A DNA stretch of 64,000 nt. Origin: a virus. Lineage: Duplodnaviria > Caudoviricetes. The stretch covers positions 1 through 64,000 of IMG/VR virus record IMGVR_UViG_3300014031_000001; one strand, 5' to 3'. Position numbers and translations under genes: made by a program. Numbering within the stretch: the stretch's first letter is position 1; each line of letters starts with the position of its first letter. The notes beneath the pieces were generated by a model. The model was not told the DNA's origin. It saw only the letters and a list, made by a program, of their open reading frames with translations, and did not search any database. Shown piece after piece: positions 7,207 through 24,590 of the stretch.

Positions 7207-7707
7207 ATGACGACCTCTCCCAGTGCCGTAATCGACAGTCTTTTCCATACTGGTGCCGACAAAAGTCCGCTGCCGGAGGCAACTGAGTACGCCCTCAAAC
7301 TCGTTATGCCAGCGCTGGAGAGGCTCGCCGAGAAGAAGGCCGACAAGGCCGACCTGGCCGACCTGGCCGGTCACCTCCAGAAAAGCGACGTCAGGCCGGC
7401 GGTCAAGGCTCTTGAGGCAGCCCTCCCTCTTCTCGCCGAGAAGAAAGCCGACAAGGCGGCTTTGGCCGAGCTTGCCAGCCATCTTCGGAGAAATGACGTC
7501 CGTCCCGAGATCAACGCTCTGAAGGCCGCCCTTCCTCTGCTCGTCACCAAGGCGGACCTTCAGACGATCACATTGGCCATCGCTGAGATCGACGCGAAGT
7601 GGGGGAAAATGCGCGCTGCTGTGGTGGCGATTGCCACGGCGATCGACGCGAGCACGGCGGCCGGCGGCTACGTTGCGGCCGTCACGACTGAACTGCAAGG
7701 GTTCTAA
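7207..7707 (+). CDS. helical repeat protein, possible fibre
   Basis: Two 36-aa repeats LAEKKADKA.LA.LA.HL...DVRP...AL.AALPL (DNA copies start at 7324 and 7432). Confidence 0.7.
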   Translation: MTTSPSAVIDSLFHTGADKSPLPEATEYALKLVMPALERLAEKKADKADLADLAGHLQKSDVRPAVKALEAALPLLAEKKADKAALAELASHLRRNDVRPEINALKAALPLLVTKADLQTITLAIAEIDAKWGKMRAAVVAIATAIDASTAAGGYVAAVTTELQGF

Positions 7708-13714: not shown

Positions 13715-14098
13715 GGGGCTGTAATGGTTTCGACGGAGATTGTGAAGTGCAGCGTGCGTGTCGTGGACGTCCTGGACCACGTAAATACTCGGGGCAACTA
13801 TTACAAGACAACTCCAACGTTGTTCATGTCAATTTCGCGCAAGCGAAGATGGCAAAAGCGGCCTAAAAACCGTTTTACCCGTCGCCAGAGAACGGGTTGT
13901 TAAAAATCTCGGGCAACGCAGACAACGGGCTAGCAGTGCGCAATCTGCAATTAGTCCAGGGATTCCAGTCCTGCTAAAACTGGATGGTGGAGGCGCAGCC
14001 ACGGCGCCCCAGGTTGGCGGACCAGTAAACCGCCTACACACGTAGACCGCTCAGGGATCAATCTTCGGACGCCGGTTCAATTCCGGCCAGCTCCACCA
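13715..14098 (+). ncRNA. ssrA: tmRNA
   Basis: 5' GGGGCTGTAATGGTTTCGAC; 3' T-arm GCCGGTTCAATTCCGGC plus CAGCTCCACCA (Ala acceptor stem with G3:U); internal tag frame 13807..13866 DNSNVVHVNFAQAKMAKAA*. Confidence 0.95.
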
Positions 14099-18538: not shown

Positions 18539-19375
18539 ATGGAACAGCCGCGCTACCTAAAAGACCTCGACTACCGGGCCAACGAGCGGCCGAGTGCCGA
18601 CCAGCTGAAAAAGAGGTGGAAGGACCTCTGCCGCAAGCACCACCCGGACGCCAAGGGCGACCCGCGGGACTTTCGGCGCGTGACGCACGCCTTCAACATG
18701 CTCACCGACGCCGACTACCGCCACCAAGACCAGCTGCGCGAGCTGCGGACCAAGCGCAATGCCAAGGGCGACCTGAATCTGCGCATCCAGGTGCCTGTCA
18801 CCTTCGAGGACGCTTTTTTCGGGCGCGAGATCTCAGTCTCCTACAACCGCATCGAGATCGACGGCGAGGGCACCCCCATCGTCAAAACCGAGATGGACGT
18901 CGTCTACCAAAGGGTGGTCCTGCCGGCCGGCTGCGTCGGCGGCCTCGAGGTGGTGATCGAAGGTGGCGGCCACTCGTCGGGCGACGACCGCGGCCTGGCG
19001 CACCTGCTCTTCATGCCACTGCCGCACCGGCGCTTTCGTGTCGAGGGCGCCGACGTCGTCTCGACCGAAGAGATCCCTCTCGACGTCTTGCTGAAGGGCG
19101 GCAAGATCGAGGTGGCCACGATGTACGGCGTCCAGGCCGTGCGCATCCCGGCAGGCACGGCGCCGGGCACCAGGCTGCCCATTCCCGGCTGCGGCGTCCA
19201 GAAGATCGGCGCCCACCAGGTCGAAGTCCAGCCGCGCTTTCCGACCAAGGGCGAGCTGCGCGGCGCTGCCTGGAAAGGGCTCGAGGTCGACTGGGGCGAG
19301 ACCCCGGCCGAGCGCGTCGTGGACGACGAAGCCGAGCAAATGATGAACCTCTTTAAAAAGCTTGGAGGTGCCTGA
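18539..19375 (+). CDS. DnaJ/CbpA-like co-chaperone (J domain plus DnaJ C-terminal domain)
   Basis: HHPD motif; VTFEDAFFG; H..F.V.G.D; GG.IEV.T.YG...V.IPAGT.PG. Confidence 0.85.
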   Translation: MEQPRYLKDLDYRANERPSADQLKKRWKDLCRKHHPDAKGDPRDFRRVTHAFNMLTDADYRHQDQLRELRTKRNAKGDLNLRIQVPVTFEDAFFGREISVSYNRIEIDGEGTPIVKTEMDVVYQRVVLPAGCVGGLEVVIEGGGHSSGDDRGLAHLLFMPLPHRRFRVEGADVVSTEEIPLDVLLKGGKIEVATMYGVQAVRIPAGTAPGTRLPIPGCGVQKIGAHQVEVQPRFPTKGELRGAAWKGLEVDWGETPAERVVDDEAEQMMNLFKKLGGA

Positions 19376-20458: not shown

Positions 20459-21091
20459 TTGAAGACTGTCGATGTTGTGATTCAGGGTACGACGCCGCTA
20501 CTGATCAACCGTTTTAAGGAGCAAGACGAGATCCCTGCGACGATGGTGACGAAGGGCAAGAAGGACTACGGCACGCCGCGCTACCAGGCGGAGATGACGG
20601 CCTACCGTGACGAGGACACCAAGCGCCTTTGGGTGCCGTGCAGCTGGATCAGCGGGTCGATCGCCACGATCGCCTCTGACTACAAGCTCACTGGCAGCAA
20701 AAAAAGCGTGAAGTCGGTGTCCGGCGGCGCCATCGTCCCGACCGCCGAGAAGTGCTACTTCGTCGAGGAGTTTACCGTCGACGATGTCGAGATCGACTCG
20801 CGCCCCGTTGTCGTCAACCGCGCGCGCATCATGCGCCACCGCGCTCGTCTGGAAGAATGGACACTAGCGTTCTCGCTCGAGATCGACGAAAACATCCTGC
20901 CGACCGACCGCGTCAAAGAGATCCTGGACGACGCCGGCCGGCGTTCTGGCATGGGCGACTACCGCCCGCCGAAAGGTGGGCCGTTCGGTAAGTACATCGT
21001 CGTCAGCTGGCAGGTCCAGAAGGGCGACATCCCCGAGCCGAAACCGAAGCCGGTGCTCGTAGCGAAAGAGCGTAAGAAAAAGGCGTTGTAG
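20459..21091 (+). CDS. stand-alone RAMP/Cas7-like RNA-binding protein (Vipr-like)
   Basis: TAAGGAG RBS with TTG start; first strand V.IQGTTPLLI; WVP.SWISGSI; thumb-like DSRPVVV..ARIMRHR; W.L.F.L; Gly-rich loop AG..SGMGDYRP..GGPFGKY. Confidence 0.8.
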   Translation: MKTVDVVIQGTTPLLINRFKEQDEIPATMVTKGKKDYGTPRYQAEMTAYRDEDTKRLWVPCSWISGSIATIASDYKLTGSKKSVKSVSGGAIVPTAEKCYFVEEFTVDDVEIDSRPVVVNRARIMRHRARLEEWTLAFSLEIDENILPTDRVKEILDDAGRRSGMGDYRPPKGGPFGKYIVVSWQVQKGDIPEPKPKPVLVAKERKKKAL

Positions 21092-21136
21092 CGTAAGTGC
21101 TTTGACCACCGCCCTACTCCGGCGGGGGCCATTCGC

Positions 21137-21416
21137 GGCATGGTGCGGACGGCATGGCTTGGCGTGGTACGGCTCGGTAAGGCATGGCACGCAGCGGTTT
21201 GGACGACGGGGTTCGGCGTGGCACGGCTGGGCGGAGTACGGCTCGGACGATTTGGTATGGCTACCTCTGGTGAGGCATGGTTAGGCTCGGTAGCGTGCGG
21301 AAGGCACGGCAAGGTGGGGTCTGCAATGGTATGGCAAGGCGGGGCAGGGTCCGCAGCGGTAAGGACGACGCGACATGGTTTGCTGTGGCACGGTTTTTAA
21401 AGGCGCGGTGAGGCCC
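21137..21416 (+). repeat. GGY-NN pentamer array 1 (candidate guide-RNA array)
   Basis: ggcat ggctt ggcgt ggtac ggctc ggtaa...; 4-nt GGAH units at 21147, 21201, 21245, 21299, 21363. Confidence 0.92.
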
Positions 21417-21417
21417 T

Positions 21418-21843
21418 ATGCACACGGTCTCCGACGATGACATCGATCTGCTTGTGGCTACGAATTTCTGCAAGATGTTTCGGCACAACGGCAGCTGGTG
21501 GGACCGAAATGGCAACCTGTACCCAAACTCCTGGAGTCCCGCCAGGAACGTGACGTTGTGCATGGGACTCCTATCTCGCTTCACGGCCAAGGGCTGGACC
21601 GTGGAGATTTTTGACTCGCCCCTTCCCACGTGTGTTCTCTCCAAAGACGAGCGACGATTCAGCGGCGAAGATCGGTCGGAAGCGCGTGCGGCGGGCATCG
21701 CCGTGCTGAAGACCAAGGGCCTATGGAAAGGGCAAGGTACGGATGGTTTGGTAAGGCAGGGCCAGTTGAGGCGGGGCGTGGTGGGGCTCGGACGATTAGG
21801 CGCGGTCGGGTCGGGCAAGGACCGGCATGGTCGGGTGAAGTGA
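21418..21843 (+). CDS. hypothetical protein whose last ~37 codons run through array 2
   Basis: GAGG RBS formed by the end of array 1. Confidence 0.55.
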   Translation: MHTVSDDDIDLLVATNFCKMFRHNGSWWDRNGNLYPNSWSPARNVTLCMGLLSRFTAKGWTVEIFDSPLPTCVLSKDERRFSGEDRSEARAAGIAVLKTKGLWKGQGTDGLVRQGQLRRGVVGLGRLGAVGSGKDRHGRVK

Positions 21844-21921
21844 GGCAGGGCAAGGTCTGGACGACACGTAGTGGTTAGGGGCGGCGGGGCAAGGCAAGGC
21901 AAGGCAAGGACGGTAAGGCAG
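21731..21921 (+). repeat. GGY-NN pentamer array 2
   Basis: 5-nt period; GGAH units at 21741, 21790, 21859, 21908. Confidence 0.92.
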
Positions 21922-21943
21922 ACAACGTGCATGGAGGTGTGGC

Positions 21944-22261
21944 GTGCTACAGGTTCATTGCCAGGATTATCTGGCAACGGTGCGCGAGTTTGCGAAGGAA
22001 CATGGGCTAGAAGAAGCATTGGAAGAAAAGCTCGACTGGCTCAAAGATTATTGTGGCGGCACGTGCGTGTGCGACCTCTATAAAGATTTTGCGCCGCAAA
22101 GCTTCGGCTTCACCCTGGCCAAGATCGAAGACGACGGACGTCGCAACCACTGGTTCACGGGTGGGCTCATCTACCAGGGGCCGGACTCCCCAGGAGATGG
22201 CTCTTATCCGGCGCTTTCCGTAAGTCTGACCCCCGGTACAGGCTGGCAGATACACACGTAG
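21944..22261 (+). CDS. DUF4120-like protein
   Basis: GGAGG RBS; LYKDFAPQSFGF...GGLIYQG...SVSL...GWQIHT. Confidence 0.7.
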   Translation: MLQVHCQDYLATVREFAKEHGLEEALEEKLDWLKDYCGGTCVCDLYKDFAPQSFGFTLAKIEDDGRRNHWFTGGLIYQGPDSPGDGSYPALSVSLTPGTGWQIHT

Positions 22262-22274
22262 GAATTTCAAGGGA

Positions 22275-22472
22275 GTGACTGTGGCGACGAATGCAGAGGG
22301 TGGTTGGACAGCCAAGAGGGCGAAAGAGCTGCAGGCGGCGATCGTCGCGCTCGAGCTCGAAGCCGAGCAACTGAGGGTGAATAACCGTCCCGCACTGGCG
22401 CTAGAGGCCTCGCGCAAAGCCGTGCGCCTGCGCCGGCGCCTTGAAGAAGAGCGCGCCGCACAAGGAGCATAG
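22275..22472 (+). CDS. small helical hypothetical protein
   Basis: AAGGGAG RBS. Confidence 0.5.
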   Translation: MTVATNAEGGWTAKRAKELQAAIVALELEAEQLRVNNRPALALEASRKAVRLRRRLEEERAAQGA

Positions 22473-22483
22473 CCCTTCAGATC

Positions 22484-22753
22484 GGTGTGCTAGGGCTCGG
22501 CAGGGCGGGGAAGGGCGTGGTTTGGCAAGGCTTGGTTCGGACGAAGCGTTGCGGCTACGCACGGCATGGCACGGTGGTGTACGGCAAGGTCAGGACGATC
22601 AGGTGTCGCATGGCATGCCATGGCGAGGCGTCGTACGGCATGGTGACGAGAGGCGAGGTGTGGCAGGGTTAGGACGCTGTGGCAAGGTTAGGCTGGCACA
22701 GGTGAGGTGTGGCATGGCTCGGATGCACAGACGAGGTGAGGCAAGGGAGGCGA
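22484..22753 (+). repeat. GGY-NN pentamer array 3
   Basis: 5-nt period; GGAH units at 22539, 22593, 22672, 22721. Confidence 0.92.
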
Positions 22754-23001
22754 TTAAAAAATTCAAAGAGTTCACAAGCACCTGCCACTACTGCGGCTGG
22801 CTCGTGATGATGAAGAGCGAAGAGGCGCCGCCATACAGGCCGCGCCCCGACGACTGCTGGTGCCTGGGGTGCGGCCAGCGCTACTTCTGCGCTGTATCGC
22901 TGGCCGAAGAAAAATCGTCGGCGACTGACGCCGCCGACGACCATATGGAGAGGACAAGCACCGAAAGAGGCGGCTCTTCTAGCACAGCCCCGGGGCTTTG
23001 A
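22754..23001 (+). CDS. small CxxC...CxxC protein, start uncertain
   Basis: TCHYCG...WCLGCG in the frame following array 3. Confidence 0.4.
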
Positions 23002-24028: not shown

Positions 24029-24590
24029 TTAGTGGATCGAGTGCAGGTGCCGGGCTGCCGCCAAGCGCCGGCCAGCCGCCGAGACTTCAAGGCCGAGCAT
24101 CTGGTCATACACCGCGTGCCGAGACGCCGCCTCGTCTTGCTTCGCCAACAGTCCCGCGACTTGCTCTTGGAGTTGCTCGACGAGCTGCTTCAAGAAGGCC
24201 ACGGCCTGGTCGTTAGCCCGTCCGGAGAAGTGGTTGTGCAGTGCGAGGTGGCACTCCTCTTGAAACTGCAGAAGCTTCTCGCGAAGCTCCGGCTTCACCT
24301 TGTTGGCGTTGATGCCGTAGAGCCAGCCGTTGAGCTGACGCACGGGAAGAGCCAGCATAGTCCTGTTTTTCCCGTCATTTGCAACTATGGTGATATCACC
24401 ATAGTTGAAGCGCGGGTCCTTGATGAGCTTCGCGTGCTGGCTCTTCCAGTCAACGCCGATAGCTTCGGCAATGGGCTTTACCGCCACCATATGCTCGCCG
24501 CCATATGCTCGCCGCCATATGCTCGCCGCCATGCTCGTTAATCCATGCCACTAAATCCCAGCCCTTAAACGGAATCCTAATCTCCTGCAT
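24029..24590 (-). pseudogene. P22 Ant-like N-terminal domain antirepressor, frameshifted by a 14-bp repeat expansion
   Basis: VAVKPIAEAIGVDW..Q...DGKNR.MLALP...LNGWLYGINANKVKPELREKL..FQEEC..AL..HF; natural start ATG 24590 with GGGGAG RBS is out of frame. Confidence 0.8.
24487..24537. repeat. tandem repeat (CCATATGCTCGCCG)x3 plus partial copy
   Basis: Exact copies at 24487, 24501 and 24515. Confidence 0.95.

What the first reader, a model, noticed from the sequence alone, without database searches (positions are those of the whole stretch)
21147..22724. A 4-nt GGAH unit punctuates the arrays into discrete guide-sized segments
Seen: every internal phase slip in the three arrays is explained by one 4-nt unit (GGAC x10, GGAT x2, GGAA x1) at 21147, 21201, 21245, 21299, 21363, 21741, 21790, 21859, 21908, 22539, 22593, 22672 and 22721. 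The pentamer after it is often degenerate (GANNN). Decoded NN strings: 21151 AT TT GT AC TC AA AT AC GC TT; 21205 GG TC GT AC TG GG AC TC; 21249 TT AT TA CT GA AT TA TC AG GC; 21303 AC AA GG CT AT AT AA GG AG CC GC AA; 21745 TT AA AG CA GA GG GT GG TC; 21794 TA GC CG CG AA CC AT CG GA GA AG AA CT; 21863 AC GT TA GC GG AA AA AA AA; 22484 GT AG TC AG GG AG GT TT AA TT TC; 22543 GC GC TA AC AT AC GG AC AA CA; 22597 CA GT AT AT AT GA GT AC AT GA GA GA GT AG TA; 22676 GT AA TA TG CA GA GT AT TC. All differ, and each carries 16-30 variable nt. Inference: GGAH is a processing site or filament boundary giving at least 11 separate RNAs of 44-79 nt. If every third target base is skipped, recognition could ignore codon wobble positions.
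Basis: partly seen in the sequence, partly recalled or inferred. Interest (0 to 1): 0.88.

Follow-up and report, generated by a model that had tools for sequence, protein, structure and literature searches.

The report
Staggered VIPR guide-RNA arrays in phage
The five-letter repeat arrays are the guide-RNA arrays of a phage VIPR system, a CRISPR-related RNA-guided DNA silencer first described in 2026 preprints. The 4-letter GGAH units are the junctions that split the arrays into about 11 guides, so this is a new example of a known kind.

Summary
Three + strand arrays of GGYNN pentamers (21136-21377, 21725-21927, 22474-22735) are the only such tracts in the 118.6-kb phage record. All 13 phase slips are 4-nt GGA[C/T/A] units followed by G, at the stated coordinates.

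The gene just upstream (20459-21091) is a Vipr protein. Its family profile hits PDB 36pp 'SUSP1 Vipr protein' (E 2.6e-12), its model has a Cas7/Csm3 fold, and the GGY-reading residues are conserved. The locus is therefore a VIPR system (bioRxiv 10.64898/2026.04.26.720920). In VIPR, GGY is held by the protein and the NN pairs read DNA while skipping every third base, usually the wobble base.

The 4-nt slip matches that paper's 'staggered arrays' of vrRNAs that overlap by 1 nt (fig. S18 legend), which the paper does not list among the architectures confirmed by RNA-seq. The same GGAH+G junction recurs in related loci. I infer that a purine in the pyrimidine-only pocket, plus the -1 shift, ends each filament.

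I found no natural target: there is no self-match, and only chance-level hits in IMG/VR. This scan had already found VIPR in at least 11 other genomes. Verdict: new member of a known kind.

The parts
20459..21091 (+). vipr gene: a 210-aa lone RAMP (Cas7-like) protein that would bind one YNNGG unit per protomer
   Evidence: A profile of 30 homologues hits PDB 36pp_D 'SUSP1 Vipr protein' at E 2.6e-12 over residues 1-182. The AF2 model (pLDDT 81) matches Csm3/Cas7 chains at E 5e-7. The G-loop D167-Y168-R169 aligns with SUSP1 D177-W178-R179 and R128 with thumb R138. It matches phrog_4652, function unknown.
21127..21406 (+). vrRNA array A: a 4-unit leader stub, then guides A1 (10 units), A2 (8), A3 (10) and A4 (12), then a degenerate last segment. 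GGAH junctions at 21147, 21201, 21245, 21299 and 21363.
   Evidence: As RNA it is no more structured than shuffles (z +0.97).
21731..21916 (+). vrRNA array B: a 2-unit stub, then guides B1 (9 units), B2 (13) and B3 (9). Junctions at 21741, 21790, 21859 and 21908.
   Evidence: The last 37 codons of ORF 21418-21843 read through this array.
22484..22754 (+). vrRNA array C: guides C1 (11 units), C2 (10), C3 (15) and C4 (9), then a short degenerate end. Junctions at 22539, 22593, 22672 and 22721.
   Evidence: The ATG of ORF 22723-23001 lies inside the last junction, GGATG.
21418..21729 (+). Small ORF between arrays A and B. No family match, and not conserved next to vipr elsewhere.
21944..22472 (+). 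Two small ORFs between arrays B and C: a DUF4120 protein (21944-22261) and a 65-aa ORF (22275-22472). Neither is conserved next to vipr elsewhere.
   Evidence: Pfam PF13496, E 8.9e-12. tblastn against 83 vipr loci finds no hit.

Best explanation
This is a VIPR (Viral Interference Programmable Repeat) system carried by a roughly 118-kb tailed phage.

Known from the published family: Vipr protomers polymerise along an RNA made of YNNGG/GGYNN pentamers, one protomer per unit. They hold the two G and the pyrimidine in protein pockets and present the two variable bases. The NN pairs then pair with double-stranded DNA that has one unpaired base after every two (the xNN rule, with x usually the codon wobble base). 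This silences transcription of rival phages or satellites.

Shown or inferred here: the three arrays are read as about 11 separate guides of 8-15 units. The guides are separated by a GGAHG junction, that is, a pentamer with a purine (A) in the pyrimidine slot whose last G is also the first G of the next guide, which gives the -1 phase slip.

Inferred mechanism of the junction: the pocket for position 3 sterically excludes purines, and the next units are one base out of register. A filament that grows on one segment therefore cannot continue into the next, and the junction sets guide length. In this role it replaces the pseudoknot tail of type II systems and the hammerhead ribozymes of other types.

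Whether the RNA is also cut at the junction, by a host RNase trimming unprotected bases or by Vipr itself, is not known.
For: Protein identity. The profile hits the solved SUSP1 Vipr at E 2.6e-12. The model has a Cas7/Csm3 fold. The residues that read G1, G2 and Y3 in SUSP1 are conserved.

Array grammar. G1 92%, G2 85%, Y3 91%, NN near maximum entropy.

Linkage. In 83 loci that encode relatives of the protein, most carry GG-pentamer arrays. These always lie on the vipr strand, usually directly downstream, and never on the opposite strand. In L001 the array ends in an intrinsic terminator, so it is transcribed with the gene.

Junction. All 13 slips are -1 and GGA[C/T/A]+G, against 2 of 91 in-phase GG units with A3. 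The same junction occurs in every slip of the at least 60% identical clade, L001-L007. Segment sizes of 8-15 units compare with the published 9-16.

Literature. The GGY/NN code, the 1-nt skip, the purine-excluding Y pocket and the staggered arrays with 1-nt overlap are all described.

Other clades. A purine at position 3 also marks the repeat-to-tail junction in type II arrays of phage Alf5 (GGG or GGA). It also marks the conserved end (GGAAT GGYTT + AT-rich tail) of vrRNAs in a marine clade.

Absence of other caps. The array RNA has no excess structure, and Rfam finds no ribozyme.

Phage context. Tail sheath, major head protein and helicase are present, and the tool classes the record as a virus record.
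Against: There are no RNA data for this locus. The source paper says that only the ribozyme-interspersed and single-vrRNA architectures were confirmed by sRNA-seq, so staggered boundaries are themselves an inference there.

No natural target was found, so targeting is not demonstrated for these guides.

Two in-phase units inside guides, GGACC in B2 and GGAAG in C1, also have A at position 3, so a purine alone may not stop a filament.

Some close relatives have runs of 20-35 units with no slip at all (L004, L005, L215), so the junction is not the only way this clade sets guide length.

No conserved accessory (vap) gene lies beside vipr.
Confidence: 0.8

Rival explanations
1. The locus is a VIPR system, but the GGAH units are not guide boundaries. 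They are tolerated irregularities or hinges inside a few very long guides, or the RNA works uncut with other determinants of guide length, such as a ruler or host RNase sites elsewhere.
For: Close relatives carry in-phase runs of 20-35 units without any slip (L004, L005, L215). Two in-phase GGA units occur inside segments B2 and C1. RNA ends were not mapped.
Against: All 13 slips share one direction and one sequence, and this recurs in related loci. The spacing gives 8-15 units, close to the 9-16 measured for vrRNAs. The Y pocket is reported to exclude purines. The paper draws such junctions as vrRNA boundaries.
Confidence: 0.12
2. The slips are neutral decay: random 1-nt deletions in old repeat arrays, with no role.
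For: Individual units inside the arrays are often degenerate, for example GCAGC, AGTAC and CCTCT.
Against: Random indels would give +1 and -1 slips at arbitrary units. Here 13 of 13 are -1, all in a GGA[C/T/A]G unit (Fisher P 9e-15 against in-phase units). The same holds in independent related loci.
Confidence: 0.03
3. The arrays act as DNA, for example as binding sites for a partition, packaging or replication protein with half-turn spacing, rather than as RNA guides.
For: The 5-bp period is half a helical turn. No promoter or terminator was found inside the locus.
Against: The arrays keep a strict strand relation to vipr in the related loci that carry them, and none lies on the opposite strand. 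An intrinsic terminator directly follows the array in L001. The family's RNAs were sequenced, co-purified with the protein and solved in complex. The neighbouring protein is a RAMP with conserved RNA-reading residues.
Confidence: 0.02

Closest known systems
VIPR systems with 'staggered' vrRNA arrays (bioRxiv 10.64898/2026.04.26.720920 = PMC13142463, fig. S18)
   Same: A lone Vipr RAMP gene. GGY/NN pentamer arrays on the same strand beside it. Hypervariable NN. Guides that abut and overlap by 1 nt, which is the -1 slip seen here. Phage-encoded. No CRISPR repeats or other cas genes.
   Different: I could read only the figure legend, so I cannot say whether the published example uses the same GGAHG junction or belongs to the same Vipr clade or type. 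Here the three arrays are separated by small protein genes and partly overlap them, and no conserved vap gene is present.
Type II VIPR of coliphage SUSP1 and the P. fulva prophage (characterised experimentally; PDB 36pp)
   Same: Homologous protein (profile E 2.6e-12) with conserved G1, G2 and Y3 contacts. The same GGYNN code. Similar guide length.
   Different: Type II vrRNAs each end in a conserved tail of about 40 nt with a pseudoknot that caps the filament, and the locus has vap1. This locus has no tail, no excess RNA structure and no vap1-like neighbour. The protein aligns over residues 1-182 but is distant: tblastn with the window protein did not reach SUSP1-like phages.
Class 1 CRISPR-Cas backbone (Cas7/Csm3 filament on crRNA)
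   Same: RAMP fold with G-loop and thumb. One protomer per fixed number of guide bases. Periodic flipped bases that interrupt guide-target pairing.
   Different: The period is 5 nt with 3 of 5 bases buried, against 6 nt with 1 flipped. There are no CRISPR repeats, Cas6, Cas1/2 or large subunit. Guides are hard-wired in a repeat scaffold rather than acquired spacers.

Membership tests
VIPR system | Vipr protein: a minimal RAMP (RRM core, glycine-rich loop, thumb) homologous to characterised Vipr | tested here: met
   Profile of alignment A1 against PDB: 36pp_D 'SUSP1 Vipr protein', E 2.6e-12, residues 1-182. The AF2 model matches Csm3/Cas7 chains at E 5e-7.
VIPR system | Residues that read the GGY motif (SUSP1 D177, W178, R179 in the G-loop; R138 in the thumb) | tested here: met
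   They align with D167, Y168, R169 and R128. D167, R169 and R128 are invariant in 30 homologues.
VIPR system | Tandem GGY/NN (YNNGG) pentamer arrays with conserved GGY and hypervariable NN, beside vipr and on its strand | tested here: met
   for the window. Most of the 83 related loci carry such arrays, always on the vipr strand.
VIPR system | Guide length of about 9-16 repeats | tested here: met
   8-15 units between GGAH junctions, mean 10.5. This depends on the junctions being boundaries.
VIPR system | vrRNAs are expressed and bound by Vipr | not testable with these tools
   No RNA data. Indirect support only: an intrinsic terminator directly follows the array in L001.
VIPR system | Guides match rival mobile elements under the 1-nt skip rule | tested here: inconclusive
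   No match above shuffled controls on the phage's own 118.6-kb record or in 83 vipr loci. Exact seeds of 8-9 units from 6 guides (7 scans) in IMG/VR gave only chance-level extensions. NN composition fits codon positions 1-2, but only z about 2 against uniform NN.
VIPR system | Accessory vap gene next to vipr (typical, not universal: six vap families across seven types) | tested here: not met
   None of 11 neighbouring ORFs has a tblastn hit in 83 related vipr loci, and there are no DNA-binding or nuclease Pfam hits.
VIPR, staggered-array architecture | Adjacent vrRNAs abut with a 1-nt overlap, with no tail or ribozyme between them | tested here: met
   All 13 junctions are 4-nt units, which equals GGAHG overlapping the next pentamer by its G. 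No Rfam ribozyme and no excess structure.
VIPR type II (SUSP1-like) | Conserved structured 3' tail (pseudoknot) of about 40 nt after each repeat tract | tested here: not met
   Segments follow one another directly. Compare the Alf5 arrays, which have tails.
CRISPR-Cas (class 1) | CRISPR repeat-spacer array | tested here: not met
   No repeat-spacer array among the tandem repeats of the window. The gene is stand-alone. A full cas-gene scan was not run.

The most novel reading that the evidence does not exclude
In this Vipr clade the structured 3' cap of the guide (pseudoknot tail or ribozyme) has been replaced by a 5-nt stop signal, GGAHG. A purine that the pyrimidine pocket rejects, plus a -1 register shift, is enough to end one Vipr filament and start the next. 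Guide length would then be set purely by protein-RNA register, and the array might even work uncut, as filaments strung on one transcript. This would be the smallest known delimiter of guide RNAs in any RNA-guided system.
Probability: 0.35. Interest if true: 0.5.

Novelty: new member of a known kind. Interest (0 to 1): 0.3.

Why it matters
VIPR is a very recent discovery: a gapped-code, RNA-guided DNA silencer proposed to be older than CRISPR. This locus adds a clean, well-resolved example of its least documented array form, the staggered form without tail or ribozyme.

It also gives an explicit junction grammar, GGA[C/T/A]G with a -1 shift, that is conserved across a clade. From this follows a testable idea: a purine in the pyrimidine pocket ends the filament. 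If that holds, guide arrays could be engineered with 4-5-nt delimiters.

Tried and rejected
Early ideas, dropped once the protein was identified:
- A CsrA-type GGA sponge RNA.
- A target for a TRAP-like ring protein.
- G-quadruplex tracts.
- DNA iterons.

[quoted passage not shown] The skip-3 'hits' are the arrays themselves.
- Our guides against 83 vipr loci, and 1904 nine-unit windows from those loci's arrays against our record: nothing.
- IMG/VR exact seeds for guides A4, C3 (two seeds), B2, C1, A1 and C2, with the extension scored.
  - The best result is C1 at 20/22, in a contig of 45-48% GC. A perfect 9-unit run is about what chance gives, and the host GC does not fit.
  - C3 reached 24/30 in one contig, about 0.3 expected by chance.

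- A genome-contig scan with the single protein found nothing. With the alignment it found one MAG locus, L215.
- The genome search 'relatives' is not available for a virus record, so the host's relatives could not be searched with mismatches.
The other contigs that encode the identical protein could therefore not be compared for guide turnover at junctions.

Other checks:
- Rfam: only the tmRNA.
- Promoter and terminator scan of the locus: nothing above shuffles.
- Search for a vap gene by conservation: none.

Full report
**Observation.**
The region 21100-22760 holds three tracts in which GG recurs every 5 nt on the + strand. A count of in-phase GG in 50-nt windows reaches 7 or more of 10 only at 21136-21377, 21725-21927 and 22474-22735, and never on the - strand. 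The remaining 54 kb of the record has no further tract.

The slip at 21741 sits at the start of array B and was confirmed by reading.

The units are GGAC x10, GGAT x2 and GGAA x1. Each is followed by G, and the next base is A in 7 cases, G in 4 and C in 2.

Across 116 in-phase units, G1 is 92%, G2 85% and position 3 is a pyrimidine in 91%. Positions 4 and 5 have 1.86 and 1.98 bits of entropy. A at position 3 is found in 13 of 13 slip units but in only 2 of 91 in-phase GG units (Fisher P 9e-15). Segments hold 8-15 units.

**What it is.**
The ORF that ends 36 nt before the first array (20459-21091, 210 aa) matches only phrog_4652, of unknown function. It has hundreds of metagenomic homologues and about 1,900 representative clusters at E 0.001 or better.

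A profile of 30 homologues hits a single solved structure, PDB 36pp 'SUSP1 Vipr protein', at E 2.6e-12 over residues 1-182. The AlphaFold model (pLDDT 81) matches Csm3/Cas7 subunits of type III CRISPR complexes at E 5e-7.

A literature search on that name leads to three 2026 preprints on VIPR, Viral Interference Programmable Repeat. They report the following:
- A lone ancestral RAMP, Vipr, polymerises on vrRNAs made of 9-16 YNNGG repeats.
- The GGY bases are buried in protein pockets.
- The NN pairs read double-stranded DNA while skipping one base after every two, generally the codon wobble base.
- The complex silences rival phages and satellites.

The residues reported to read G1, G2 and Y3 in SUSP1 Vipr are D177, W178 and R179 in the G-loop and R138 in the thumb. 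They align with D167, Y168, R169 and R128 here, three of which are invariant in the family alignment.

The record is a tailed phage: tail sheath, major head protein and helicase are present, and the tool classes it as a virus record.

**Linkage of gene and arrays.**
In 83 loci that encode relatives of the protein, most carry GG-pentamer arrays. These always lie on the vipr strand, usually directly downstream, and never on the other strand. In L001 the array is followed at once by a hairpin and T-run, so it is transcribed with the gene.

None of the neighbouring ORFs of the window is conserved in those loci. In this clade the module is therefore vipr plus arrays, without a recognisable vap gene.

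**The GGAH unit.**
The first preprint lists, besides tailed arrays (type II) and hammerhead-interspersed arrays, 'staggered arrays with overlapping vrRNAs'. [quoted passage not shown] S18 legend). It states that only the ribozyme and single-vrRNA forms were confirmed by sRNA-seq.

A 4-nt unit is the same thing as a pentamer GGAHG whose last G is shared with the next pentamer.

It is conserved. In the clade at least 60% identical to the window protein, every slip is GGAT, GGAC or GGAA followed by G, with one 3-nt GGA exception (L001, L002, L003, L006/L007).

The array RNA has no excess secondary structure (z +0.97), Rfam finds no ribozyme, and there is no tail between segments.

**Mechanism of the junction (inference).**
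The structural paper reports that the pocket for Y3, formed by the next protomer, sterically excludes purines. A junction unit with A at that position, followed by units shifted by one base, should stop a filament from growing across it. The junction would then fix guide length.

Two comparisons fit this:
- In type II arrays of phage Alf5 the unit at the repeat-to-tail junction is GGG or GGA.
- In a marine clade each guide ends in GGAAT GGYTT plus an AT-rich tail.

Three cautions apply:
- Two in-phase GGA units lie inside guides B2 and C1.
- Some close relatives have 20-35 in-phase units with no slip.
- Nothing here shows whether the RNA is cut.

**Targets.**
Under the 1-nt skip rule no guide matches the phage's own record better than unit-shuffled controls. 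This agrees with the published absence of self-targeting. There is no match in the 83 vipr loci in either direction.

Seven exact seeds of 8-9 units, taken from six guides, gave 6-51 hits each in IMG/VR. Scoring the rest of the guide gave only chance-level extensions. The best was C1 at 20/22, in a contig of 45-48% GC, against 62.5% for this phage.

The NN composition fits codon positions 1-2 far better than any phase that includes the wobble base (+24 and +15 bits against -27 to -81). Most of that reflects GC3 bias. Against uniform random NN the excess is only about 2 sd.

Targets therefore remain unknown.

**Verdict.**

The locus is a new member of a known kind. Its modest added value is the explicit GGAHG junction grammar and the purine-in-the-Y-pocket idea.

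The scan's own index already lists VIPR loci in at least 11 other genomes with the same verdict. One has 4-nt delimiters of another sequence (GGC-A-GGY) and one an AACA punctuation, so junction sequences appear to differ between clades.

Noticed in passing
window 13715-14098: A full-length tmRNA gene (Rfam RF00023, 127 bits) lies in the record, and the ORFs tested on both sides gave no cellular-gene family match (CxxCxxCC domain and unknown ORFs upstream, Gp3-like recombination directionality factor downstream). Either the phage encodes its own tmRNA, or this is an attachment site inside a longer provirus.
   Followed up: partly
window 21418-21843 and 22723-23001: ORF 21418 has no stop before array B, so its last 37 codons are a translation of the pentamer array. 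The ATG of ORF 22723, a CxxC...CxxC zinc-ribbon-like 92-aa protein, lies inside the last junction, GGATG. Guide arrays and small genes therefore overlap.
   Followed up: partly
window 21944-22261: A DUF4120 protein (PF13496, E 8.9e-12) sits between arrays B and C. It is not conserved beside vipr in 83 related loci, so it is probably an inserted cargo gene and not a vap.
   Followed up: partly
L013, L017, L027 (marine metagenome contigs): Vipr relatives at about 40% identity carry arrays of up to 1 kb. Each guide ends in a conserved GGTAA GGAAT GGYTT plus AATGAATTTAAT tail, a third kind of delimiter, distinct from the pseudoknot tail and the GGAHG junction.
   Followed up: partly
L004 4586-4725, L005 727-836, L215 3800-3974: Close relatives (62-65% identical Vipr) have 20-35 in-phase units with no phase slip. 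How guide length is set there is unclear. In L215 the array lies upstream of vipr.
   Followed up: no
L216 (Escherichia phage Alf5, NC_031082.1 55237-60404): The SUSP1-type vipr locus is present at 95% identity or more in 118 of 130 matching phage records (mostly Felixounavirus) and is annotated only as hypothetical proteins. The record named Staphylococcus phage SA1 (GU169904.1) also carries an identical fragment.
   Followed up: no
window 7323-7543 and 24482-24532: A 108-bp tandem duplication (2 copies, 76% matches) and a 14-bp tandem repeat (3.6 copies, 97% matches) were reported by Tandem Repeats Finder.
   Followed up: no
window 18539-19375: A phage-encoded DnaJ-like co-chaperone (DnaJ and DnaJ_C domains) lies two genes upstream of vipr.
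   Followed up: no
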